DNA from: Escherichia coli
Lineage (GTDB): Bacteria > Pseudomonadota > Gammaproteobacteria > Enterobacterales > Enterobacteriaceae
DNA length: 64,000 nucleotides
NCBI RefSeq assembly: GCF_051903065.1
Contig: NZ_CP178438.1
Reading direction: 5' to 3' (one strand)
Shown here piece after piece: positions 51,161-63,903 of this stretch; position 1 is the stretch's first letter; every line of letters begins with the position of its first letter. Below the pieces are notes generated by a model. It worked only from the letters and a program-made list of their open reading frames with translations, was not told the origin of the DNA and did no database searches. The translations under genes were made by a program, and so were the position numbers.

Positions 51161-52372
51161 GTGAAAAACAGAACCCTGGGAAGTGTTTTTATCGTGGCGG
51201 GAACCACAATTGGCGCAGGCATGCTGGCAATGCCGCTGGCTGCGGCAGGTGTTGGTTTTAGCGTCACGTTAATCTTGTTGATTGGGCTTTGGGCGTTGAT
51301 GTGCTACACGGCGCTATTACTGCTGGAGGTGTACCAGCATGTTCCGGCAGATACCGGCCTGGGCACGCTGGCAAAACGCTATCTGGGACGCTACGGTCAG
51401 TGGCTGACGGGCTTCAGTATGATGTTCTTAATGTATGCTCTGACTGCGGCATACATCAGCGGTGCTGGTGAATTGTTGGCTTCCAGCATCAGCGACTGGA
51501 CAGGTATTTCAATGTCGGCAACCGCTGGCGTGCTGTTGTTCACTTTTGTTGCCGGTGGCGTGGTTTGTGTCGGGACATCGCTGGTCGATTTATTTAACCG
51601 TTTTCTGTTCAGCGCCAAAATTATTTTTCTGGTGGTAATGCTGGTACTACTGCTACCGCATATTCACAAAGTGAATCTTTTAACCCTGCCGTTGCAACAG
51701 GGGCTGGCACTGTCTGCAATCCCGGTGATTTTTACGTCGTTTGGTTTTCACGGTAGTGTGCCGAGTATTGTCAGCTATATGGATGGCAACATTCGTAAGC
51801 TACGCTGGGTGTTTATAACCGGTAGTGCGATCCCCCTGGTGGCATATATTTTCTGGCAGGTGGCGACGCTTGGCAGCATTGATTCAACAACCTTTATGGG
51901 ATTGCTGGCTAATCATGCCGGATTAAACGGGCTGCTACAGGCGTTACGCGAAATGGTGGCCTCTCCGCATGTTGAACTGGCGGTGCATTTATTTGCTGAT
52001 TTAGCCCTCGCCACGTCATTTCTCGGCGTTGCGTTAGGCTTATTTGATTATCTGGCTGATTTGTTTCAGCGTTCAAATACCGTTGGTGGAAGATTGCAAA
52101 CGGGTGCAATTACCTTTCTGCCGCCGTTGGCGTTTGCACTGTTTTATCCACGAGGATTTGTGATGGCGCTGGGTTACGCCGGTGTGGCGCTGGCGGTACT
52201 GGCATTGATTATCCCTTCACTATTGACCTGGCAAAGCAGAAAGCACAATCCTCAGGCGGGTTACCGGGTCAAAGGTGGTCGTCCGGCGCTGGTGGTGGTG
52301 TTTCTCTGTGGTATTGCTGTGATTGGCGTGCAATTTTTGATTGCGGCAGGGTTGTTACCAGAAGTGGGGTGA
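51161..52372 (+). CDS. tyrP: tyrosine-specific permease
   Basis: 403-aa ORF with GTG start ([14 protein letters not shown]). Confidence 0.95.
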
Positions 52373-52433
52373 TTAGATAGCCTCAAATTCCTTATTGGGT
52401 GCCAGAATTAACGCTGACACCCAATTTGACTTC

Positions 52434-53099
52434 TTAATGCAGGCAGCACTGCTTAAATTTCTTACCACTACCGCACGGGCAAGGATCGTTACGCCCCGGT
52501 TTCTCTTCTGCTATGATCGGTTGCTGAACAGCTTTTTCCTGCGGATGCGCCATCCAGTATGCATGTAAATCAAGCGCCGCCAGTCGAATGGCATCTACGC
52601 TCTCTTCAAACGCTTCTGGCGACATCTTCTCTACCCGCTCGAAGTTTTCCTGAGTACCGTGCAGCGCTATCGCCTCCAGCGCTGGTTTTAACGAATCGGG
52701 CAATGTTGACCAGTCAGAAAGTGCCACGCCCCGCATATAGCCAAAGCACCACTCCTCAACAATCGTCAGCTCGCTGCCATCAACTTCTCGCAAGCCGAAT
52801 AACGGCTCAAACTGCTCCGGGAATTCGTTCAGACGCTCTGCGGTATCGGCCATATGTTGAAAAGCCAGGTTCATAAAGCGCGTCATCTCTTTCTCTGACG
52901 CCCAGCGCGGCACATAGTCAGCCCCACCCCACACGGCAACCAGCCACTGTGCCGGTTCAATCTCTTGCGGAGAACTCAACACCGCCGTCAATAAACCGTC
53001 CAGCTCCGCCACATCAAGGATGGCGTGGTCAGTGTTGTATTTGGTCAGAATATCGTCCAGCCATTCCAACTCACTTTCGTTTAACGGTCCCGTTTTCAT
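52434..53099 (-). CDS. yecA: YecA (UPF0149, C-terminal SEC-C metal-binding motif)
   Basis: 221-aa ORF ending [15 protein letters not shown]. Confidence 0.93.
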
Positions 53100-53227
53100 A
53101 CGCTTTTCCTTGTGGATCTCAACTCGCCAGCACCTATCTTACATGCCGGTCCGTATCAGAGATACTTTTTGAGTGGCTTTGCCGGTGATTAAAAATCAAG
53201 GAGGGTGTAACGACAAGTTGCAGGCAC

Positions 53228-53250
53228 AAAAAAACCACCCGAAGGTGGTT
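53228..53250 (-). terminator. rho-independent terminator (tRNA-operon terminator homologue), repeat copy 1
   Basis: minus strand ccacc-ttcg-ggtgg hairpin + T7. Confidence 0.75.
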
Positions 53251-53294
53251 TCACGACACTGCTTATTGCTTTGATTTTATTCTTATCTTTCCCA

Positions 53295-53350
53295 TGGTAC
53301 CCGGAGCGGGACTTGAACCCGCACAGCGCGAACGCCGAGGGATTTTAAAT
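53295..53350 (-). other. 3' fragment (56 nt) of tRNA-Leu(UAA), att-site remnant
   Basis: revcomp ATTTAAAATCCCTCGGCGTTCGCGCTGTGCGGGTTCAAGTCCCGCTCCGGGTACCA = 3' part of leuZ from anticodon loop to CCA; 5' half absent. Confidence 0.85.
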
Positions 53351-53529
53351 TCTACGCAGGATCAATGAGTTACATAGCAGTGCATTGCGAAACTTTGCTG
53401 TAATTGTTTACTCATTTTACTGTAATTGGCAGTAAATAGATAGACTTGGATAACTTTGAGCACAGAATCTGCACAGGTAAGTCCCCTCTCACGGAGGCCT
53501 ACCTGTGCTATATCTATATGACTGCAAAG

Positions 53530-54171
53530 TTACGAGTTTGACTGGAAATCTTCAATTATCTTCTGATTGTAATCATCCAGATACTTTTGCAGTTCATCCC
53601 TGTCGATCAGACGTACCAAGGCTGATTCAGCTAACTCTTTCGCAGAGCGAGTGAGTAGGAATTAGTCACAACCATCGCCTCATCACAACCATAGAATGTT
53701 TTAGCAGAGATCACCTGCTGCACCGCCGAGTTACCTACAGAACCAGAATAATTTTTCGCCTGAATAACCATATCCTTACCAAATCGAGTGACGAAGAGAT
53801 CTGCCCCCTGATCTTGCGTTCTCTTGGTTTCTTTGACGTCATAGCCCATAGTCTGGAATACTTCCACAAGGAAATCTTCAAACTGGAAACCGTCCATTGC
53901 ATCAACTAAATACATGGTGACGAATTTGTTAGGGTTAAAATGTTCGAGCCGTGTAGCTAATCTATCAACCAGAATATCAAAATAAATATGTTCGCACACA
54001 GCTAAGTATTTTTTAACTTCATCAAATGAAACTAAAGGAACACCAGGCGTAGCCTCCACTTTTTCATTGAACTCTACTGATGAGAACTCTATTTTATTGC
54101 TCCATATATAGAATAGAAACAATGAAAGATCTGCCCTAAAAGTGGTACCCGCTTCCTCAATCCATGACTTC
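53530..54171 (-). pseudogene. Mrr-like (PD-(D/E)xK) restriction endonuclease pseudogene: 5' truncated by IS1, frameshift near 3' end
   Basis: ORF 53631..54185 has Mrr_cat-like ...GADLFVTRFGKDMVIQAKNYSGSVGNSAVQQV...; its apparent TTG start lies inside the IS1 end; -1 frame past the stop reads AKELAESALVRLIDRDELQKYLDDYNQKIIEDFQSNS. Confidence 0.7.
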
Positions 54172-54226
54172 GGTGATGCTGCCAACTTACTGATTTAGTG
54201 TATGATGGTGTTTTTGAGGTGCTCCA

Positions 54227-54502
54227 GTGGCTTCTGTTTCTATCAGCTGTCCCTCCTGTTCAGCTACTGACGGGGTGGTGCGTAACGGCAAAAGCACCGC
54301 CGGACATCAGCGCTATCTCTGCTCTCACTGCCGTAAAACATGGCAACTGCAGTTCACTTACACCGCTTCTCAACCCGGTACGCACCAGAAAATCATTGAT
54401 ATGGCCATGAATGGCGTTGGATGCCGGGCAACAGCCCGCATTATGGGCGTTGGCCTCAACACGATTTTACGTCACTTAAAAAACTCAGGCCGCAGTCGGT
54501 AA
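54227..54502 (+). CDS. insA: IS1 InsA
   Basis: 91-aa [25 protein letters not shown]... Confidence 0.95.
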
Positions 54503-54924
54503 CCTCGCGCATACAGCCGGGCAGTGACGTCATCGTCTGCGCGGAAATGGACGAACAGTGGGGCTATGTCGGGGCTAAATCGCGCCAGCGCTGGCTGTTT
54601 TACGCGTATGACAGGCTCCGGAAGACGGTTGTTGCGCACGTATTCGGTGAACGCACTATGGCGACGCTGGGGCGTCTTATGAGCCTGCTGTCACCCTTTG
54701 ACGTGGTGATATGGATGACGGATGGCTGGCCGCTGTATGAATCCCGCCTGAAGGGAAAGCTGCACGTAATCAGCAAGCGATATACGCAGCGAATTGAGCG
54801 GCATAACCTGAATCTGAGGCAGCACCTGGCACGGCTGGGACGGAAGTCGCTGTCGTTCTCAAAATCGGTGGAGCTGCATGACAAAGTCATCGGGCATTAT
54901 CTGAACATAAAACACTATCAATAA
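54421..54924 (+). CDS. insB: IS1 InsB (expressed as InsAB' by -1 frameshift at A6C, 54476..54484)
   Basis: 167-aa [19 protein letters not shown]...; slippery TTAAAAAAC present. Confidence 0.93.
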
Positions 54925-55001
54925 GTTGGAGTCATTACCGCCGCTTCACGCAATATCATTTCAGGCTGGCCCGGGAGCTTAATATTCCTCCCCAGGCAAT
55001 C

Positions 55002-55364
55002 GTGTATGCCAATCTACTGGCGTGGGATTACGACGGACTGACCCCTCTCAATCGCCCTCAAAATGAAGTGCAGGAAGTTATATTAGCCTCGCTGAAGCTG
55101 CTGGCGGTACAAATTAAACACCTTGAGCCTGATTTCATCATCTTTGCATCTGGAGCCCGGAGAACAGACTACATCATAAAACAGGTGCTTACTGAGCTGG
55201 GCGGCTATGAGACTTCTGCAGTCATTCCGGGGAAGCTATGGGAGTTCAAAACAGGTAATGCAATCTGTTTCAGAATTGCCCATCCAAGGGCTATGCGCGG
55301 ACACAAGAAGTACAGAGATGAGGTGATTGCACGAATTAAGCAACTTTGTACTCAGGGTGGCTAG
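55002..55364 (+). CDS. hypothetical protein, possibly 5'-truncated gene remnant
   Basis: 120-aa ORF from GTG; frame stays open back to the IS1 junction (54942), so likely a C-terminal fragment. Confidence 0.4.
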   Translation: MYANLLAWDYDGLTPLNRPQNEVQEVILASLKLLAVQIKHLEPDFIIFASGARRTDYIIKQVLTELGGYETSAVIPGKLWEFKTGNAICFRIAHPRAMRGHKKYRDEVIARIKQLCTQGG

Positions 55365-55541
55365 AGCATTACAGTTTGCTCAGCAGGCCCCCCCTTCCCG
55401 GAAGAGTACCGGAAAACAGGCAAAGCGGCCTGGTTCTCTATGCTGGAGGCGACACGTTCAATTCGGCATTGCCAGGCTGTAGATTGCAGCTCATTGCACC
55501 CCGTGAGCACAGGATATGCACAGGGCGTGAATTGCATGCAC

Positions 55542-55567
55542 AAAAAAACCACCCGGAGGTGGTTTCA
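55542..55567 (-). terminator. rho-independent terminator, repeat copy 2
   Basis: A7 + ccaccc-gga-ggtgg hairpin, homologous to 53228..53250. Confidence 0.7.
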
Positions 55568-55606
55568 CGACACTGCTTATTGCTTTGATTATTCTGATGT
55601 TTCCCA

Positions 55607-55662
55607 TGGTACCCGGAGTGGGACTTGAACCCACACAGCGCGAACGCCGAGGGATTTTAAAT
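55607..55662 (-). other. second 3' fragment of tRNA-Leu(UAA), diverged
   Basis: same 56-nt fragment with two substitutions (gagTggg / cccAcac) that stay base-paired in the T-stem. Confidence 0.85.
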
Positions 55663-55938
55663 TCTACGTAGGATCAATGAGTTACATAGCAGTGCATTGC
55701 GAAACTTTGCTGACGTTGAATGGTCGTCTTTGCAACCACTGGCAGAAAATGGATAGCCGTAGATTGCGTTGAGCACAGAAACAGCACAGGGTAATCGTCT
55801 ACCTGGTCCTGTAAAGGAGGTTGTTGCCACACAAGCTAAAGCGCTTGACCTGCCCCCAGTATTCGGTACAACTGTCAGTTAGTAATGGACTGACCCCACC
55901 CCGGTAGACGATCCTGCCCTATAGTTACCTTTAACTAA

Positions 55939-58900
55939 TTATGCCAATTCAGACTCAAACGCTGCATCATTCGCTTCAGCCTCTGCGCCATCAATTAATG
56001 CCAAGACTCGGTCAAGAAAGCGTTGCGCTTCGTATACATCTGTTGCTTGCCGCAGATAATGAGGTATTCGTTCAACAAACTCGGAACGTGATAAAGGCTG
56101 ATGTTCCAGCAAAGCCTCAAGCATTGCGGGCCGCAACAAACGACGATCAGCATCAACATTAGGAAGCTCAACCTCAATGACATGTGTGGCAAAATACTTA
56201 AGTTGCTCCTTAAGCCCCAAATTGGGCATAAGAGAATCAATTGAGTCAGACGCCACTTCAGCGCTTGACTCAATCGTTTCTACATATTCATAGGAAGGTA
56301 CAACAACGTCTGGAGCCAATGTTTTAAGCTCATGGAGTTTACGGATAATCGGAGATAGAACCTCATCAGGATTACTGAACCAATCAGTGGACCAAATGCG
56401 GCTAATTCTCCAACCCAAACGCTCCAGAACCTCTTGACGCAAACGGTCACGATCACGAGCAGATTTAGCTGAGTGATAAGCCGCACCATCACACTCTATG
56501 CCCATTAAGTAACGGCCAGGACAACCTGGATCTTTCACAGCTAGATCAATAAAGAATCCTGCAACCCCTACCTGAGGTTCACACTCAAACCCAGCGTGAT
56601 TGAGTGCTTCCATTACAGCAACCTCAAAGTCACTATCTGGAGCCCTGCCGGTATGCGTTGTGAGGGAATCTAGTTTGCCACTTTCGGCAAACTGTAAAAA
56701 ACCTTTCAACGAAATAACACCAAGTTTACTGATTTCACTCGTCAATACATCTTCAGAACGCATTGAACTAAACACATGCATCCGTTTTTTTGATCGAGTG
56801 AAAAGCACATTCAAGCGACGCCAGCCAACATCGGAATTGATAGGTCCAAAGCGTTGATAAACCTTTCCACCATGCTCAGAAGGTCCATAGGTAAAGGAAA
56901 TAAAGATTACATCACGCTCATCCCCTTGAACGTTCTCAAGGTTTTTCACAAAAAGTGGCTCTTCCATGGCATATAAGCCATCGATTGCATCGTTAAATTC
57001 AGGGCGATTTCGGCGCAATTCATCGATAGCGCGCTCAATTTGATCGCGTTGCTTGGAACTCATGGCCACTACCCCGAGTGACTCACCCGGCCGGTGTTGC
57101 GCATGATGAAGTACGGCCTCAGCAACTGCTTGGGCTTCTTCAATATTGTGTTGATTGGAGAACCGACCTTTTGACACATAGGTAAATTTAATCCCATACT
57201 CTGGAGACTCAGCATTTGGGGAAGGGAATATCACCAAATCACTGTTATAAAAATGGCGGTTAGAGTATGCAATCAACTTTTCATGTCGTGAACGATAGTG
57301 CCAACGCAAACGTCTCATAGGAAACAGTGGCAAAGCAGCATCCAAAATGCTGTCAGTATCACTTAAAGCCGCGGCATCATCGTCATCTTCTCCGTCGGCA
57401 CTTCGATCAAAGAAACTGGTTGGTGGTAGCTGTTTCGGGTCACCAACGACCACTAGTTGCTTGCCCCTCGCGATGACACCCAATGCATCCTCTGGCTTCA
57501 CCTGAGACGCTTCGTCCATCACCACCAGATCAAATTCCATTCGTCCAGGTTCTAGGTAATGAGCTGCTGACATTGGCCCCATCATGAAACAAGGTTTAAT
57601 TGCAACCAGCGCATTACATGCACGGTTAACCAATTGCCTAATTGGAATATGTCTGGTTTTTTTACCCAACTCATTTTTGATCAAAGCTAGTTCTGTATAT
57701 TCACTTTTCTTACCACCAGAATTCCCTTCTGGTATATTTCGGCAAGCAATTTTTGCTGCAATCCGCTGACGTTGTAATTCAATCAGTTTTTTATCGTAAT
57801 CTTTAAATGACTTCTGCAAAGCATTGCGCTGTGAGCCGGAAACTCTCATCAATTCAGGGTGGATGTGAATAACCTCCCGCGCCAGCTGGTCATGAATTGC
57901 TAATGCTAAACCCAATTCAACTTTTTCAATCGGGAGCGAGCCCGCAAGTACAGCACTCCAGATTCGCTGCAATCCATTTTCATGCATCTGCTCGTAACAA
58001 CGAATAAAGTTAACCCACCCGTTCAACCAACGGGGTTGCTGTATTGCTCTTTCGTTGCGCTCGATTAATGTATTAAGAGAACCATCAGTCGACTTGAGCC
58101 ACTGACTCCGCTCTAACTTTGTTTCTAGCGCATATAACTCAGCATTTTTAATCTGTTCATTCCATTTCGAAACTATTTCCCCACCATCACGACATAGTAA
58201 ATCGTAATCACTACCACTAGCCAAATGTCTGATCTGGGTAGCCAAGGATACGCAATTTATCTTATCAACCAGTTGCTCGGCAAAATTCAGCGTGTCGTTA
58301 ATAGTGTCTAACGTCAGTTGATTATTTTTATACGCACCGCAAGCCAATGGGGTTAATTGTAAAAACGCCCCTAACTGTAACGAGTCATTTTCAAGGGATA
58401 TCTGAAGATCGTTTATGTTTTGCAAAATCTCGGAGGAATGAGTCATCTGCTCTAATGATATATCTGGATTGATAAACCATCCCTGCAAGGCAATGAGAGT
58501 ATTCCGCACCTGTCGGTAAGATTGCATCAATACACCTTGCTCACCTAACCAAGATGCATGTTCTTCCAACAAGCTAGAAATACGCGGTAATAACTTAGCC
58601 TCGTGCTCGACCCGTTTAACCAAAGTCATTAATCTTGAGCTAATCTGCGATTTCTCGATTAAATGCACACCTTTGATAATCTCACCATCTAGGTTAAATA
58701 ATCCAGAGCCTATCGCAACTCGCTTTCCAAAACCTATCCCGTAACAAGCTCGGACCTTCTTGTACCAATCACGCAATAACATGAGTTGTTCACAGTCGGT
58801 GTCCAACCCTCGGAATGCATTACCAAGTTGATTACCAAAGTCACTTTGTTCAAACCGTTGTAACAGCTCCGAATACTTGAGCAAATCAGCTGAGCAGCGT

Positions 58901-61686
58901 TTTAACTCAGCAAACTTAGTGTCAGGCTTACGAGATTGCGCCATGAGCAGTGCCTTGGCACTACGCCAATCACTCTTAAACCATGCAAATAATCCCCCTT
59001 GCTGGATAACAGCAACGGCATGCGCGAGCATCTCTTGGGAAGGCAACTGGTCCAATTGATACAAAGTAGATAGACCATCTCTTAAAGGACGCAATGTTTC
59101 GATTTGACACATTAAGTCGCGCAATACTGCATCGATATCATCATCATCAAAAAGAGGATCTCGAACTCTAATAAGCTCAGTCGGTAAAGCACCCAGAATC
59201 GACAACAACTCAGAGCAGAATAGCAATCCAGCTTGCGAATCATCGATATACGAAGCAATACCATCTGGCAAAGCATTTTTGAAATCGTTTAATTGCGCAT
59301 AAATAGATGATAACTCATCATGAATTGATTGGATGGATTCAAGCCACCTGACCAAATCACGTAAAGTGAAATCCTCTGCTGCACCATATTTTTCCAGCTC
59401 TTCACGAGGAAAGTCACACGATTGTCCTTGTTCTAAAAGTCGTAGCTTTTGAGGCTCGATAACCTGGCTCAAGGCCACATAATGACCTTGTAGCAACTCG
59501 AACCTATCTAAATAGTGACGCACCCGTGCAATGGCATCGGGTGAATCTAGCTCACTAAGTGCTGGGAAATGCTCTGAACCACACAACACTGGAAGATTCG
59601 ACTGATCTTCTACCAATTGCTCAATATATTGAAGCGTATTAAGGCTTTCGCCTTCTAACGCCCACTTATCTACATATTCTTGATAGCTATGTTGAAAGTC
59701 GATAATTGATGTCTGCCAAGTTTGTAGCAAATCGACTATACGAGCGCTGTCAAACAATTGAATTTGTGTGTTATTCACACCGCTCCAAGGGTGCTCATAT
59801 ATTTCTGCATTAGCCCCCACCTGCTCACGAACCTCTTTGTAGATGCGGCTAAACTCTACTATTTGGTCACGCAGCCGTAATTGGGTCACTTTATCCAACT
59901 GCTTCCCGGAAAGGTTTTCGATATGAAGTGCTGTTGCATCAATATCTAATTTGTGACGATAACGGGTTGCACCACTCAAAATCTGATGGATCGTTTTGCC
60001 TGTTTGCGCCCATTGGTTATTGATCAATGCGGCATATTCATTGAGCTGCTGCTTAAGATCTTCATAACGCAAAATCTGAGCATCAATCTCTTCCATAGTA
60101 GGCATGGTCGCCTGACTCACCAAGCGAGCATTAATATCATCCAGCACCTTGCGCTTATGAGTTTTATGACTGTGCAACTCTAAGCAAAATTGACCTAGCC
60201 CCGCACGATCCAAGCGACGTTTGACGACCTCCAGTGCAGCCATCTTCTCTGCCACAAACAGGACTTTCTTACCGTTGAGCAGAGCTGCTGCAATCAAGTT
60301 GGTGATCGTTTGTGATTTGCCACTACCAGGAGGGCCCTCAATGACTAAGTTTTGACCACGGATAGCATCGATCAACGCACTGTGCTGCGAGCTATCCGCA
60401 TCATCGATTAGTGGAACCTTGTCATGAATATCAGGGTAACTATCGATGCAGTACTCATGCTGACCGAAGCCACCAGGTAAGCCGGAATTCTCTTGACCAC
60501 AGCTCTGACTGGTGAAAAAGCGACGAATTACTTCATGAGACAATATATTGCGCTTGTCACAAGGCCAGCGGGCAGGATCGAGGTCAAGATACATCATCAT
60601 CTTGCCAAAATTGAGCAAGCTAAGTGCACCATAACGTTTCACAGACCATTTAGGTTTGTGCTGCTCTACAACCTTCTTCACCGAAGCAAAATAAGACTCT
60701 GGAGTTTCCTCTTCATTGAACAAAGGAAGAGCGAGGCCAAAGTCAGCCTGAAGTTTTTCCTTCAAAGAGAGATTGGGCAAAATATCTTCACCCGTGTAAT
60801 AAAGTTGAAACTTGTAAAGACCATCCTTCGGATCTAATTTTCCTCGTTCACATCTCACCGGAATTGTAAATAACGGTGCATAACGTGCCTTTTCAGAGGA
60901 ATCGCTTTCATACCACTCAAGGAACCCTAACGCCAAATACAAGATGTTGGCGCCACTCTCCTCCAAAGCAGTTTGAGCCTTACCATAGATGGCGCGCAAA
61001 CAAGCTTCCAGTTCATTTGGATAAAGCAGAGCCTGTATCCGATTATCGTCATGAGAGGGATTGGAAGAAGATATACTAATCTCATTCCCAGCCTTTGCCT
61101 GTCGTTCAAAATCCTCAAGCCCTTCATAGCCTGCTAAGCAGCACGCCTCCTTCAACGCTGACAAAGCTATACCTTGATTAACGTATTCAGAACGAATCCC
61201 TGTTAATTTTCCATTCTGGCCTTGGGCATATTGCAAGATAAACTGATGGGCTTTTTCCAGCAACTCTCTATCTGAATCAGAAACAACCGTTTTATGGCTA
61301 TCTGGTAAATCAAAATCTGTACGGATTCCTAAGACGTGCGCCCAATCCTTAGCGCTAGGATGAGCTCTTAACTGTATATCTTTACCATCTGGCCCAACTT
61401 TGAGATAGCCATGCTCTAACAGCTGCGCTCTAGTTGGATCGGGCACAGGAGCAAATTCCATCGGGATTTCCGAGCAAAGGGTTTCATAAAGCTGTTCTGG
61501 TAATTCATCAACAATACGTAGTGAAGACCCTTTTTGAGTGATAGGGAAATTCAAAAGTCGATTTCGAGACGTAAGGTCCAATAACTTCTTACGCATAGCC
61601 TCGAGGGAAGTCAGAATAAAATCTGAGCCTCCTTGATTGAGTTCCTCTGCTGTAGAGGTATCTACAGTCGACATAATGTTCTCCAT
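55939..61686 (-). CDS. giant helicase-nuclease (1915 aa): DUF4011-like N-terminus, Upf1-like SF1 helicase with ~940-aa insertion, C-terminal Vsr/DUF559-like nuclease domain
   Basis: LLDLTSRNRLLNF and LALGFLEWYE near N-terminus; Walker A GPPGSGKS (res 451-458, nt 60313..60336); DEAS (res 1391-1394, nt 57505..57516); VVVGDPKQLPP; GDERDVIFIS; GWRRLNVLFTRSKKRMHVF; C-terminal FFIDLA...IECDGAAYHSAKSARDRDRLRQEVLERLGWRISRIW (nt about 56377..56628). Confidence 0.85.
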   Translation of the reverse strand: MENIMSTVDTSTAEELNQGGSDFILTSLEAMRKKLLDLTSRNRLLNFPITQKGSSLRIVDELPEQLYETLCSEIPMEFAPVPDPTRAQLLEHGYLKVGPDGKDIQLRAHPSAKDWAHVLGIRTDFDLPDSHKTVVSDSDRELLEKAHQFILQYAQGQNGKLTGIRSEYVNQGIALSALKEACCLAGYEGLEDFERQAKAGNEISISSSNPSHDDNRIQALLYPNELEACLRAIYGKAQTALEESGANILYLALGFLEWYESDSSEKARYAPLFTIPVRCERGKLDPKDGLYKFQLYYTGEDILPNLSLKEKLQADFGLALPLFNEEETPESYFASVKKVVEQHKPKWSVKRYGALSLLNFGKMMMYLDLDPARWPCDKRNILSHEVIRRFFTSQSCGQENSGLPGGFGQHEYCIDSYPDIHDKVPLIDDADSSQHSALIDAIRGQNLVIEGPPGSGKSQTITNLIAAALLNGKKVLFVAEKMAALEVVKRRLDRAGLGQFCLELHSHKTHKRKVLDDINARLVSQATMPTMEEIDAQILRYEDLKQQLNEYAALINNQWAQTGKTIHQILSGATRYRHKLDIDATALHIENLSGKQLDKVTQLRLRDQIVEFSRIYKEVREQVGANAEIYEHPWSGVNNTQIQLFDSARIVDLLQTWQTSIIDFQHSYQEYVDKWALEGESLNTLQYIEQLVEDQSNLPVLCGSEHFPALSELDSPDAIARVRHYLDRFELLQGHYVALSQVIEPQKLRLLEQGQSCDFPREELEKYGAAEDFTLRDLVRWLESIQSIHDELSSIYAQLNDFKNALPDGIASYIDDSQAGLLFCSELLSILGALPTELIRVRDPLFDDDDIDAVLRDLMCQIETLRPLRDGLSTLYQLDQLPSQEMLAHAVAVIQQGGLFAWFKSDWRSAKALLMAQSRKPDTKFAELKRCSADLLKYSELLQRFEQSDFGNQLGNAFRGLDTDCEQLMLLRDWYKKVRACYGIGFGKRVAIGSGLFNLDGEIIKGVHLIEKSQISSRLMTLVKRVEHEAKLLPRISSLLEEHASWLGEQGVLMQSYRQVRNTLIALQGWFINPDISLEQMTHSSEILQNINDLQISLENDSLQLGAFLQLTPLACGAYKNNQLTLDTINDTLNFAEQLVDKINCVSLATQIRHLASGSDYDLLCRDGGEIVSKWNEQIKNAELYALETKLERSQWLKSTDGSLNTLIERNERAIQQPRWLNGWVNFIRCYEQMHENGLQRIWSAVLAGSLPIEKVELGLALAIHDQLAREVIHIHPELMRVSGSQRNALQKSFKDYDKKLIELQRQRIAAKIACRNIPEGNSGGKKSEYTELALIKNELGKKTRHIPIRQLVNRACNALVAIKPCFMMGPMSAAHYLEPGRMEFDLVVMDEASQVKPEDALGVIARGKQLVVVGDPKQLPPTSFFDRSADGEDDDDAAALSDTDSILDAALPLFPMRRLRWHYRSRHEKLIAYSNRHFYNSDLVIFPSPNAESPEYGIKFTYVSKGRFSNQHNIEEAQAVAEAVLHHAQHRPGESLGVVAMSSKQRDQIERAIDELRRNRPEFNDAIDGLYAMEEPLFVKNLENVQGDERDVIFISFTYGPSEHGGKVYQRFGPINSDVGWRRLNVLFTRSKKRMHVFSSMRSEDVLTSEISKLGVISLKGFLQFAESGKLDSLTTHTGRAPDSDFEVAVMEALNHAGFECEPQVGVAGFFIDLAVKDPGCPGRYLMGIECDGAAYHSAKSARDRDRLRQEVLERLGWRISRIWSTDWFSNPDEVLSPIIRKLHELKTLAPDVVVPSYEYVETIESSAEVASDSIDSLMPNLGLKEQLKYFATHVIEVELPNVDADRRLLRPAMLEALLEHQPLSRSEFVERIPHYLRQATDVYEAQRFLDRVLALIDGAEAEANDAAFESELA

Positions 61687-61860: not shown

Positions 61861-63903
61861 TTATTGCTGAATTTGATTGGATAGTAAGACCTGCAACATA
61901 TCTTGTTGATGCACAGCTATCTCATCTTCCAGCCAACGACCTTTATCTTTCATCAGCCGAATCATAGCAAGCAATTTAAGACTATCAGTCTGGTTATTGG
62001 CAAGGCTTGCTTCAAAGTGCTCCTGCTTCTGTTGCGGCTGGAAGTTACTCAAGCGCGAGTTCTTGCTGTGGCTGATAAGGCAAAGGTTGCCAAACGAATG
62101 GAGTGCACTCTGCTCAACCGGTTTATAGCCATCCATCGGATGCTGGGGTGAGAAGTGCTCCACCGAGCTGCGGAAAGTGAACTCAAAGGAGCCAGCAACT
62201 TTGTCGCTATTCCGATCTCGTACCCACAGCAGATAGTCGAGGAAGTTGAAGACAAAGTTGTTCTCGATATGACCGAAGCGAAGTTTGGATGTAATCACCT
62301 TGTGCCAACTCTCATCCACATTGATGGCGGGCAACAGGGCGTTATCAAGGTAGAGCATCTGGTAATAGGAAGCCCCTTCACCAGGCGCCAAAAAGCGCTG
62401 GAAGACAAAGCGGCGAGCCTGACTCTCCAGATAGGACAGATAAGCCCCGGCATCCACCGGTTGATCAGGGTGACAATTGTCGAACAGATATCTCAGTGCA
62501 CCATTCAGCCAATGTTTGTAAACCAGGGTCGGGGTCGACACATGAAACGCCGACAGCAACATCAGGACCCGCCGGTTAACACCAGAGAAACCATTCTCAT
62601 TTTCATCCTTGTCAAAGGTATTGATGTAACTGACGCTCTTTTCCGAATACCAGTGCAGCCGCTTCAGACTCCAACTATCCTTGCCATCGGCAAACTCGCG
62701 CTTGATGATGAACTGATCAAACAGATACTTGCTCTTTAACAGGCCATAGATAAAACGCTGAACTGCCGCTACTGGATCCGGTTGCCTTATCACTCGCAGC
62801 TCAAACTGATCGACCAGTTGTTTATCATCAAGCGGCACCCCCTCCGTATCACCCGGGTCGCGGCTCACGAGTCGCAGCACATGGAGCAAGAAGTTGGAGA
62901 AGTTGATGACGCTGTTAAAGCGCTCGGAGCCTGCGCTCTCCTCCTCCACCGTCTGCTCACCATCAAGCTTGTCATCCTGCAAAATGGCCAACAAGGTGCG
63001 CCCTTGGCTACCGGCAGCTGCACGGCTTTTATCGGCAGCGTCGGCCGTGTTTGGGGATCCTAGCAGATCAAGCAGATGGGCAAAGTCACGGGGCACAAAC
63101 TGACCCCAGTCGCTCTCACCAAACAGACGGTGGCGCTCTTGCGGGGTAAAGCCGTACTGGATATAGCGCTCCATATTGGCGCAGGCATCCCATACCCGGG
63201 TCAGGATATGAATACTTTGGCGACGATGCTCTTCCTCGGGTATCTGGTTCAGCGTCTCCATCAGCCGCGCCTTGATCACTTCATGCTTTTCCAACTGCTC
63301 GCCGCGATTGTTCATCGCCTCGAAGAAGTGATTGAGATCGGTATCCTTGGGTACTTCGATACGAGAGATCTGCACATGCTTGAAGAGGTAGTCGCAAAAG
63401 GTCGTCAGTTTAGCCCCTACCAAACCAAGATCCGCCATTGCCTTGCCAATCAGCTCAAAACCGTTCACCAAACCTTCATTGAAGGTACTCCCCCGCAAAT
63501 CGTAGGGGGCAACACCCTGCCATAAGCGCTCGAAGGTATGGCTCGATATCGGGCGACTCTCAAAAGCGAGGTTGATGGTCTGATACCAGCTCATATCCAC
63601 CGAATCTATCGCGTGATGTTTGAGCCAATTGGCCAGCAGAGAGAGGGTAGTAAAGCGCTGCTGGCCATCGATTACCTCGAAACTGCCATCGTCCCGGGCA
63701 AACACCACCAGGGTGCCGATATAGTAGGTTTGCGGCCCCTTACCACTGACCAATTTTTGCTGATAATCCAGCACATCCTGCAGCAGCTGGGTGATCTCTC
63801 CCTCACCCCAGGCATAGTTGCGCTGGTACATGGGCACCAGATAGCGGGCGCGATCTTCAAGCAGTGCACGAATGGAAAAGGGGCGAACGCCTGCATCATT
63901 CAT
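61861..63903 (-). CDS. DUF262 (ParB-like NTPase/nuclease) + DUF1524 (His-Me finger) protein, GmrSD-like putative type IV restriction enzyme
   Basis: N-terminal [16 protein letters not shown] and [12 protein letters not shown] (res 79-83); C-terminal [12 protein letters not shown]...[18 protein letters not shown]. Confidence 0.85.

What the first reader, a model, noticed from the sequence alone, without database searches (positions are those of the whole stretch)
53224..55712. Two diverged ~175-bp direct repeats with tRNA-Leu 3' fragments mark tandem island accretion next to yecA
Where K-12 has leuZ beside yecA, this sequence has two copies of terminator + spacer + 56-nt tRNA-Leu(UAA) 3' fragment + about 50 bp of island arm (53224..53400 and 55538..55712, about 90% identical by eye). 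Weaker homology continues for about 100 bp to the right of each. They bracket a decayed module 1 and precede module 2, which holds the defence genes. Because the repeat includes the terminator beyond the tRNA portion, this is not a simple att core duplication; it points to serial integration of related elements or recombination between island ends.
Basis: partly seen in the sequence, partly recalled or inferred. Interest (0 to 1): 0.65.

Follow-up and report, generated by a model that had tools for sequence, protein, structure and literature searches.

The report
Tandem mobile-island att sites at leuZ
Two copies of the tail of the leuZ tRNA gene plus its terminator mark where two related mobile defence islands, one decayed and one a pipolin, inserted one after the other into the same tRNA gene; the process is ordinary and already described, but the repeated piece also contains a known small-RNA sponge.

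Summary
Windows 53218-53400 and 55532-55712 are direct repeats, 95.1% identical. Each holds the leuZ terminator and spacer, the last 56 nt of tRNA-Leu(UAA), and about 50 bp of island end.

They are attachment sites left by two serial integrations into leuZ. Both elements use the same tyrosine integrase (99% identical). Element A (53351-55662) is a 2.3-kb remnant gutted by IS1. Element B (from 55663, about 35 kb) is a pipolin carrying Hhe, DUF262 nucleases and a type I R-M system. In a 99.9%-identical genome the intact leuZ lies about 26.7 kb beyond the window end.

E. coli genomes show all four states: empty, A only, B only and A+B. In A-only genomes the working leuZ carries exactly the copy-2 variants.

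The terminator is not evidence of anything unusual. The elements' own attP carries a 133-bp block that restores the tRNA 3' part and its terminator. Unrelated leuZ phages carry the same block. A secondary insertion on a plasmid places the crossover in the anticodon loop.

Pipolins at this tRNA, their conserved att repeats, and genomes with three repeats are already published.

One new side point: the terminator plus spacer is the 3'ETS-leuZ sponge for RyhB and RybB, so this strain holds three copies.

The parts
52434..53099 (-). yecA, the chromosomal flank of the insertion site
   Evidence: ORF list. RefSeq annotation of the 99.9%-identical genome. Same neighbour as in K-12.
53218..53350 (-). 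Distal att (copy 1): the original chromosomal identity block. It comprises 10 nt, then 3'ETS-leuZ (53228-53294, terminator hairpin plus spacer), then the displaced leuZ 3' fragment (53295-53350).
   Evidence: Identical to K-12 over this block, up to TTTTAAAT of the anticodon loop. The 3'ETS-leuZ feature is b4759 in the K-12 annotation.
53351..53520 (+). Far-end arm (P arm) of element A, with the tandem motif GCACAG-N5-GCACAGG at 53460-53477 and an inverted CCTGTGC at 53503-53509
   Evidence: The same arm sits next to yecA in the A-only genomes L004 and L005. The motif has 3 hits in the window against 0 expected, all of them at att arms.
53530..54177 (-). Restriction-endonuclease pseudogene (C-terminal part of an Mrr-like nuclease); remaining cargo of element A
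   Evidence: RefSeq pseudogene call in the near-identical genome. The full-length homologue in L005 matches Mrr-like/ZorD nuclease models.
54172..54939 (+). IS1 (768 bp) without a target-site duplication. It joins non-contiguous parts of element A, so it marks a deletion.
   Evidence: Terminal inverted repeats read directly in the sequence. IS1A transposase annotation. The flanks differ (catgacttc versus gccgcttca). L004 has the integrase gene directly after its IS1, and its IS1 junction lies about 120 bp further into the nuclease gene.
54943..55365 (+). 3' part of the 246-aa UDG-like gene that lies between the integrase and the tRNA-proximal att in intact elements (truncated here)
   Evidence: Aligns with the full gene in L002 (16211-16951) and L004. 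Matches phrog_29550 at E=1e-179. Some cluster members are named 'uracil-DNA glycosylase-like'. No Pfam or PDB sequence hit.
55366..55531 (+). Integrase-side arm (P' arm) of element A, with GCACAG-N5-GCACAGG at 55507-55524
   Evidence: Identical to the sequence left of the terminator at the intact leuZ of A-only genome L004, and near-identical to that of L002.
55532..55662 (-). Internal att (copy 2): the island-borne identity block of element A. It comprises 10 nt, then an island-type 3'ETS-leuZ (55542-55606; 2-nt deletion, 2 substitutions and 1 loop change), then a leuZ 3' fragment (55607-55662) with a compensatory T-stem change at 55619/55633.
   Evidence: Matches the 3' end of the functional leuZ of L004 at every diagnostic position. 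Also present as an internal att, 100% identical over 181 nt, in the independent tandem array L006.
55663..55860 (+). Far-end arm (P arm) of element B, with GCACAG-N5-GCACAGG at 55773-55790
   Evidence: The same arm abuts the chromosomal att in B-only genome L018 and a plasmid secondary site in L007.
55939..61686 (-). hhe (DUF4011 anti-phage helicase-nuclease); first cargo gene of element B, transcribed towards copy 2
   Evidence: ORF list. RefSeq name. Full-length PADLOC Hhe match, 4303 bits.
61861..63903 (-). DUF262/GmrSD-like nuclease gene; cargo of element B, which continues beyond the window
   Evidence: ORF list. RefSeq annotation. PADLOC HEC-06/Orf5/SspE-type N-terminal domain.

Best explanation
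The two repeats are attachment sites left by two successive site-specific integrations into leuZ. Both elements use the same tyrosine integrase.

Each element's attP holds a 133-bp copy of the leuZ tail. This comprises the last 57 nt of the tRNA from the anticodon loop, the 65-67-nt 3' external transcribed spacer with its terminator, and about 10 nt more. Two element arms flank it, each carrying a GCACAG-N5-GCACAGG motif.

Strand exchange happens in the anticodon loop. Integration therefore rebuilds leuZ from the element's own tRNA tail and terminator. The previous tail is pushed to the far end of the element.

Element A most likely integrated first and displaced the chromosomal tail, which is now copy 1 beside yecA. 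IS1 then deleted A's integrase and most of its cargo. Element B, a pipolin carrying defence genes, then integrated into the rebuilt leuZ and displaced A's tail, which is now copy 2. Copy 2 is thus both the tRNA-side att of A and the far-end att of B.

Shown: the anatomy, the population states and the position of the exchange interval. Inferred: integrase binding at the motifs, the order of events, and present-day mobility.
For: Copy 1 matches K-12 up to the anticodon loop, and K-12 is the empty site.

In the 99.9%-identical genome NZ_AP045789.1 the order is yecA, copy 1, A, copy 2, B, integrase, UDG-like gene, island-type terminator/spacer, intact leuZ, cysT, glyW, pgsA.

The right end of A (54943-55531) aligns with the integrase-side end of the element at the intact leuZ.

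A-only genome L004 has an intact leuZ with the same variants as copy 2: G in the terminator loop, island-type spacer and T-stem double change.

B-only genome L018 has the chromosomal tail joined to arm B.

An independent tandem array (L006) has a full integrase and UDG-like gene directly left of a 100%-identical copy 2.

The integrases of the A-type and B-type elements are 99% identical.

Diagnostic SNPs confine the exchange to 55634-55662.

A plasmid gene containing GGATTTTAAATCCC is joined to arm B exactly at ...TTTTAAAT|TCTACG. The crossover is therefore in the anticodon loop and needs only about 15 bp of similarity.

The motif GCACAG-N5-GCACAGG occurs 3 times in the window against 0 expected. 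In all loci it occurs only at equivalent att-arm positions.

Published work places E. coli pipolins at the tRNA-Leu between pgsA and yecA, with conserved att repeats and sometimes three of them (PMC7385651, PMC9710591, PMC11551731).
Against: The window itself holds neither an integrase nor the intact leuZ. That part rests on a 99.9%-identical genome.

No excision product or circular form can be observed with these tools, and the pipolin papers say att-mediated mobility still awaits in vivo proof.

Sequence alone cannot fix the order of integration. An attP recombining with B's far-end att would give the same product.

Element A has no piPolB, so calling it a pipolin remnant rests only on the shared integrase, UDG-like gene, arms and att.

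The arm motifs are candidate integrase sites by position and statistics only.
Confidence: 0.9

Rival explanations
1. Element B entered by RecA-dependent homologous recombination between the 133-bp identity block on a circular or transferred copy of B and the resident block. No integrase crossover was involved.
For: The block is long enough for homologous recombination and is 95-97% identical between copies.
Against: All five A-type markers lie on the terminator side and the B-type marker lies in the arm. That leaves only the 29 nt next to the arm for the exchange. The identical junction recurs in an independent strain (L006). A plasmid secondary site with only about 14 nt of similarity is joined at the same nucleotide, which is typical of an integrase.
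Confidence: 0.05
2. The order was reversed. B integrated first, and A later integrated into B's far-end att beside yecA.
For: The predicted product is identical in sequence to what is seen. B-only genomes exist.
Against: The far-end att has an attP-like core half-site and lacks the 5' half of the anticodon stem. A is the more decayed element, and in relatives its integrase is already truncated at residue 328 by IS1. A 2-4 kb integrase-less remnant is therefore an unlikely late arrival. A-only genomes carry the copy-2 variants in a working leuZ.
Confidence: 0.04
3. The repeats arose by a local tandem duplication or unequal crossing-over of the chromosomal yecA-leuZ spacer. No second mobile element was involved.
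For: The direct repeats include chromosomal-looking sequence (terminator and spacer).
Against: The sequence left of copy 2 is the element's integrase-side arm, not the yecA promoter region. Copy 2 carries the island-type spacer, loop and T-stem variants found at the integrase end of single elements. Both elements occur alone in other genomes.
Confidence: 0.01

Closest known systems
E. coli pipolins (piPolB-encoding integrative elements; Redrejo-Rodriguez group: PMC7385651, PMC9710591, PMC11551731)
   Same: The integration site is the same, the tRNA-Leu between pgsA and yecA. They have conserved att-like direct repeats. Their core holds two tyrosine recombinases, an excisionase-like gene, a UDG-like gene, DUF2787 and a B-family polymerase near the tRNA, with variable defence cargo at the far end. 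Genomes with three att repeats and tandem accretion are already reported.
   Different: The reported three-repeat cases in E. coli pair a pipolin with a myovirus prophage. Here the partner is an IS1-gutted element with the pipolin-type integrase module and no polymerase gene. The papers do not mention the terminator, the 3'ETS or the sRNA sponge inside the att repeat.
Tandem genomic-island arrays at tRNA/tmRNA genes (Islander database, PMC4383910; general model of tRNA-targeting tyrosine integrases)
   Same: The element restores the split tRNA gene. A displaced 3' fragment marks the far end. Repeated use of the rebuilt gene gives arrays with one fragment per element (abstract listed).
   Different: Nothing essential differs. 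The identity block here runs 77 nt past the tRNA end to include the whole operon terminator.
Temperate phages that use leuZ: mEp390 (attP annotated), Fostie, ZF40, a P2-like prophage of O157:H7 and an ST131 prophage
   Same: The crossover region is the same, with identity ending at TTTTAAA(T) of the anticodon loop. The attP content is the same: tRNA tail, spacer and terminator placed directly after the integrase gene. mEp390 and Fostie even share the T-stem double change of copy 2.
   Different: The integrases are unrelated or very distant (19% identity to mEp390 Int). The arms differ. They are phages, not defence islands.
3'ETS-leuZ sponge RNA of the glyW-cysT-leuZ transcript (K-12 b4759; described in bioRxiv 10.1101/2021.04.25.441314 and the papers listed)
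   Same: Copy 1 is 67/67 identical to b4759. Copy 2 and the copy at the intact leuZ keep the terminator and the AAUCAAAGCAAUAAGCAGUGUCGUG segment. Predicted pairing is unchanged: RyhB -23.6 to -24.4 kcal/mol, RybB -18.8 kcal/mol. The ARN run is 7 in K-12 and 6 in the island type.
   Different: The two copies in the window no longer follow a complete tRNA or the operon promoter. Whether they are transcribed and released is unknown.

Membership tests
att sites of a tRNA-targeting tyrosine-integrase element | The direct repeat equals the 3' part of a tRNA gene, with an intact copy of that gene at one end of the element | tested here: met
   The 56-nt leuZ fragment occurs at 53295-53350 and 55607-55662. 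The intact leuZ is at the far end of B in the 99.9%-identical genome.
att sites of a tRNA-targeting tyrosine-integrase element | A tyrosine integrase gene lies next to the tRNA-proximal att | tested here: met
   A 399-aa integrase lies about 1 kb from the intact leuZ. It matches phrog_1 integrase at E=1.6e-53 and XerC/XerD-type models. It lies outside the window.
att sites of a tRNA-targeting tyrosine-integrase element | Related genomes have an empty site that lacks exactly the segment between the repeats | tested here: met
   K-12 has yecA, 3'ETS and leuZ with no insert. A-only and B-only genomes also exist.
att sites of a tRNA-targeting tyrosine-integrase element | Integrase-dependent excision or integration can be demonstrated (circular form, attP junction) | not testable with these tools
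   There is only indirect support: a secondary-site insertion on a plasmid joined at the anticodon-loop sequence.
Pipolin (element B) | A primer-independent B-family DNA polymerase gene lies between the att repeats | tested here: inconclusive
   An 866-aa protein is annotated by RefSeq as a 'DNA polymerase type-B family protein'. The Pfam DNA_pol_B_2 hit is only E=0.014. There is no NCBIfam or PDB sequence hit. The piPolB-specific HMM of ExplorePipolin was not available. The gene lies outside the window.
Pipolin (element B) | Integration at the tRNA-Leu between pgsA and yecA, with the conserved E. coli pipolin att repeats and core genes (tyrosine recombinases, excisionase-like, UDG-like, DUF2787) | tested here: met
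   The excisionase-family hit is and the UDG-like naming. The reference att sequence itself was not available for direct comparison.
Pipolin (element A, module 1) | A piPolB gene is present | tested here: not met
   There is no polymerase gene in 53351-55662, nor in the A-type single elements L004 and L005. A shares only the integrase (99%), the UDG-like gene, the arms and the att. It is filed as 'pipolin-type integration module, polymerase absent or lost'.
3'ETS-leuZ sponge RNA | Sequence corresponds to b4759 and keeps the RyhB/RybB pairing segment and the terminator | tested here: met
   Copy 1 is 67/67 identical. Copy 2 is 65 nt, with changes confined to the first 18 nt and one loop base. 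The pairing energies are unchanged.
3'ETS-leuZ sponge RNA | Transcribed behind a tRNA, released by RNase E and bound by Hfq and the sRNAs | not testable with these tools
   The displaced copies follow a truncated tRNA and island genes. The consensus scan found no other terminator between the hhe stop codon and copy 2, but that scan also missed the known terminator.

The most novel reading that the evidence does not exclude
Every element that targets leuZ (pipolin-type islands, P2-like and lambdoid phages) carries a complete 3'ETS-leuZ in its attP. The reason would be that loss of this RyhB/RybB sponge, or of the operon terminator, is costly to the host. The displaced copies left behind after each integration lie downstream of island genes such as hhe. 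They would still be transcribed and processed into extra sponge RNA. Under this reading, island accretion at leuZ changes the dosage of an sRNA sponge (three copies in this strain) and so shifts the iron- and envelope-stress thresholds.
Probability: 0.12. Interest if true: 0.6.

Novelty: new member of a known kind. Interest (0 to 1): 0.3.

Why it matters
The finding gives a clean, fully resolved example of how a defence-island hotspot grows. All four occupancy states are found in E. coli genomes, and the exchange point is mapped to the leuZ anticodon loop.

It also gives practical rules for delimiting elements at this site. There is one att block per element. The block is 133 bp. The copy beside yecA is chromosomal, and internal copies are island-borne.

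The only point that goes beyond published descriptions is that the att repeat of E. coli pipolins and of leuZ phages contains the whole 3'ETS-leuZ sponge. This could be tested with existing RNA methods. It would link mobile-element traffic to sRNA regulation.

Tried and rejected
- **Rfam:** a scan of 52000-57000 gave only two sub-threshold chance hits (STnc130 on the terminator hairpin and a plastid motif inside hhe). There is no Rfam family for the repeat.
- **Terminator scan:** the consensus scan did not report the known leuZ terminator. Its negative result between hhe and copy 2 is therefore weak.
- **Whole-length RNA duplex energies** were inflated by terminator-terminator pairing and were replaced by a calculation on the single-stranded parts.
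- **UDG-like protein:** Pfam, NCBIfam and PDB sequence searches found nothing.
- **Polymerase:** the PDB and NCBIfam searches found nothing, and Pfam gave only a weak hit.
- **Phage records:** 520873 and the ON4705xx/ON4706xx records match the block at 98.5-100% over nearly its whole length. The one inspected, 520873, also aligns with the chromosomal flank left of the terminator, so it looks like a prophage cut-out rather than a true attP. The ON records match all 133 nt including the 10 flank nt but were not opened. None of these records was used as attP evidence.
- **L005:** it first looked like an A-only genome with the window's IS1 junction. Its leuZ-side segment turned out to be the end of a P2-like prophage, so L004 was used as the A-only reference.
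- **Literature:** searches linking leuZ islands with the sponge RNA found nothing relevant.
Full report
**Observation.** The region holds two direct repeats, 53218-53400 and 55532-55712. The repeat finder reports them as a 59-nt block (97%) and a 124-nt block (96%) in register apart from a 2-bp indel. A global alignment gives 174/183 identical columns, or 95.1%. A 55-nt segment identical to the 3' end of tRNA-Leu(UAA) occurs twice, at 53295-53349 and 55607-55661, with 0 matches expected by chance. ARAGORN finds no complete tRNA in the window. To the right of each copy, similarity drops to about 60% over 120 nt, with one well-kept stretch.

**What the pieces are.**
- In K-12 the order is yecA, a 67-nt feature annotated as the small RNA 3'ETS-leuZ (b4759), then leuZ, cysT, glyW and pgsA.
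- Copy 1 matches K-12 from yecA through the 3'ETS and the last 56-57 nt of leuZ, apart from one substitution in the yecA-proximal flank outside the repeat. The match ends at TTTTAAAT of the anticodon loop, where an unrelated 'arm' begins. Copy 1 is therefore the original chromosomal tail of leuZ.
- Copy 2 has a different left flank.
- Copy 2 has a spacer with a 2-nt deletion and two substitutions.
- Copy 2 has one change in the terminator loop.
- Copy 2 has two changes in the T stem that compensate each other, turning a C-G pair into U-A.

**The rest of the locus.** A genome that is 99.9% identical over this region (NZ_AP045789.1) shows what lies beyond the window.
- Module 2 runs for about 35 kb.
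- Its genes are hhe, two DUF262 nuclease genes, a type I R-M system, a tyrosine recombinase with an excisionase-like gene, a B-family DNA polymerase gene, DUF2787, a second tyrosine integrase and a 246-aa UDG-like gene.
- An island-type copy of the terminator and spacer follows, attached to an intact leuZ, then cysT, glyW and pgsA.
- The intact leuZ lies about 26.7 kb past the window end.
- The right end of module 1 (54943-55531) aligns with the 3' part of the UDG-like gene and the sequence leading to that terminator.

Module 1 is therefore what remains of an element of the same kind, cut down by IS1. This IS1 (54172-54939) has no target duplication and joins non-adjacent sequence.

**Population evidence.** All four occupancy states exist in complete E. 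coli genomes:

| State | Example | What is seen |
|---|---|---|
| Empty | K-12 | yecA, 3'ETS, leuZ with no insert |
| A only | L004 | Working leuZ carries exactly the copy-2 variants; IS1 sits in the same nuclease gene, followed by a truncated integrase |
| B only | L018 | Chromosomal tail joined to arm B |
| A+B | Window and two genomes | The arrangement described here |
| Independent tandem | L006 | Complete integrase and UDG-like gene directly left of a 100%-identical copy 2 |

The integrases of A-type and B-type elements are 99% identical.

Counts in 5,426 genomes:
- 675 carry a far-end att with this arm.
- 532 carry the integrase/UDG-like module, at 559 places, so at least 27 genomes have two copies.
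- 295 carry the polymerase gene.

**Where and how the exchange happens.** Markers of A's tRNA-side att run from 55474 to 55633: the P'-arm base, the loop G, the island spacer and both T-stem changes. The first B-specific marker is in the arm at 55669. The exchange therefore lies in 55634-55662.

A plasmid copy of arm B gives an independent fix. An FAD-dependent oxidoreductase gene that reads CCGGAGGATTTTAAATCCCGC in intact plasmids is joined to arm B as ...GGATTTTAAAT|TCTACGTA. This site shares only the GGATTTTAAATCCC of the leuZ anticodon stem-loop. The crossover is therefore in the anticodon loop, and the other roughly 115 bp of the block are not needed for recombination.

The motif GCACAG-N5-GCACAGG occurs three times in the 64-kb window against 0 expected. 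All three copies have the same orientation. They lie about 110 bp to the right of each crossover and about 140-155 bp to the left of copy 2's crossover. In all fetched loci the motif occurs only at the equivalent positions. I read these as arm-type integrase sites, which is an inference. On that reading the tRNA tail and terminator lie inside a roughly 300-bp attP, between the core and the P' arm.

**Why the terminator is in the repeat.** The block next to the intact leuZ is island-borne. The element therefore supplies a new tRNA tail, spacer and terminator on integration and displaces the old ones. The same holds for unrelated elements at leuZ:
- a P2-like prophage of O157:H7;
- an ST131 prophage;
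- phage mEp390, whose attP is annotated, and phages Fostie and ZF40.

The mEp390 integrase is only 19% identical to the island integrase. Even so, its attP has the same layout and the same T-stem double change as copy 2. The terminator in the repeat is thus the normal att identity block of leuZ-targeting elements, not a sign of an unusual event. Only the arm similarity between the two copies reflects relatedness of A and B.

**Order of events.** The sequence cannot formally exclude that A integrated into B's far-end att. A-first is much more likely for four reasons. The rebuilt leuZ is equivalent to attB, whereas the far-end att is attP-like. A is far more decayed. A's integrase is already truncated in A-only relatives. 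Those relatives carry the copy-2 tail in a working tRNA gene.

**Comparison with what is known.** Element B matches published E. coli pipolins. These integrate at the tRNA-Leu between pgsA and yecA and have conserved att-like repeats. They carry a core of recombinases, an excisionase-like gene, a UDG-like gene, DUF2787 and piPolB near the tRNA, with variable defence cargo at the other end (PMC7385651, PMC9710591, PMC11551731). Those papers report genomes with three att repeats, a pipolin plus a myovirus prophage, and they mention tandem accretion. The polymerase here has only a weak Pfam hit, and I could not run the piPolB-specific model. That membership feature is therefore inconclusive by my own tests and rests on annotation and context. 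Element A has no polymerase gene. It is best called a pipolin-type integration module with lost or absent polymerase.

Defence content is confirmed. Hhe matches full length, the DUF262 protein is GmrSD/HEC-06-like, and A-type relatives carry Mrr-like and PDC-S26 proteins.

**The one point not found in the literature searched.** The terminator plus spacer is the 3'ETS-leuZ RNA, a sponge for RyhB and RybB that is released from the glyW-cysT-leuZ transcript.
- The island-borne versions keep the terminator and the segment AAUCAAAGCAAUAAGCAGUGUCGUG unchanged.
- Predicted pairing is the same as for K-12: RyhB -23.6 to -24.4 kcal/mol, RybB -18.8 kcal/mol.
- The ARN run is 6 triplets against 7 in K-12.
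- The pipolin papers do not mention it, and searches joining leuZ, sponge and integrase found nothing relevant.
- This strain therefore has three copies: one behind the working leuZ and two displaced. Copy 2 lies 330 bp downstream of hhe on the same strand.

Whether the displaced copies are expressed is unknown. I give that reading a low probability.

**Verdict.** It is an ordinary instance of a published phenomenon. The added detail is the exact att anatomy, the crossover position, the four population states, and the overlap of the att block with a known sRNA sponge.

Noticed in passing
L007 4990-5200 (plasmid NZ_JBTLHG010000003.1) versus L008 2740-2880 (plasmid NZ_CP026206.1): Arm B of the pipolin-type element is joined to a plasmid FAD-dependent oxidoreductase gene at a sequence that mimics the leuZ anticodon stem-loop (GGATTTTAAATCCC). 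An IS3-family transposase gene is annotated about 60 bp beyond where the similarity to arm B ends. This is a secondary-site insertion. The att query found 20 places on plasmids in all.
   Followed up: partly
Population counts: More genomes carry the pipolin-type far-end arm (675) or the integrase/UDG-like module (532) than carry the polymerase gene (295). Roughly 45% of elements using this integration module therefore lack piPolB.
   Followed up: partly
L005 16500-17060 (NZ_CP027701.1) and L013 1400-1535 (O157:H7): In L005 the segment between IS1 and the intact leuZ is the end of a P2-like prophage, not of the island. This 'single island' is an IS1-fused chimera of an A-type island and a prophage remnant.
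   Followed up: partly
window 55619 and 55633; L014 and L015 (phages mEp390, Fostie): The compensatory T-stem change (C-G to U-A) of the displaced leuZ fragment is shared by the attP of two lambdoid phages whose integrase is unrelated. It is also the functional leuZ allele in A-only E. coli genomes.
   Followed up: partly
L001 37495-38178; L006 34799-35482; L011 17506-18645: Genes annotated as YecA/YgfB-family proteins sit inside the type I R-M operon of element B and in the P2-like prophage at leuZ. Both elements insert next to the chromosomal yecA. No relation was tested.
   Followed up: no
window 54943-55365; L002 16211-16951: The 246-aa protein encoded between the integrase and the att is called a type-4 UDG in the pipolin papers, and some cluster members are named 'UDG-like'. 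By sequence it has no Pfam, NCBIfam or PDB match. It does match phrog_29550 (unknown function).
   Followed up: partly
window 54172-54939: This IS1 has no 9-bp target duplication. Compared with L004, about 120 bp of the nuclease gene on one side, and the integrase plus the 5' part of the UDG-like gene on the other side, are missing. This is consistent with IS1-adjacent deletions.
   Followed up: partly
window 56233-56281: A 21-nt inverted repeat (81% complementary, 7-nt gap) lies inside the 3' part of hhe. It gave a sub-threshold chance match to a plastid Rfam family.
   Followed up: no
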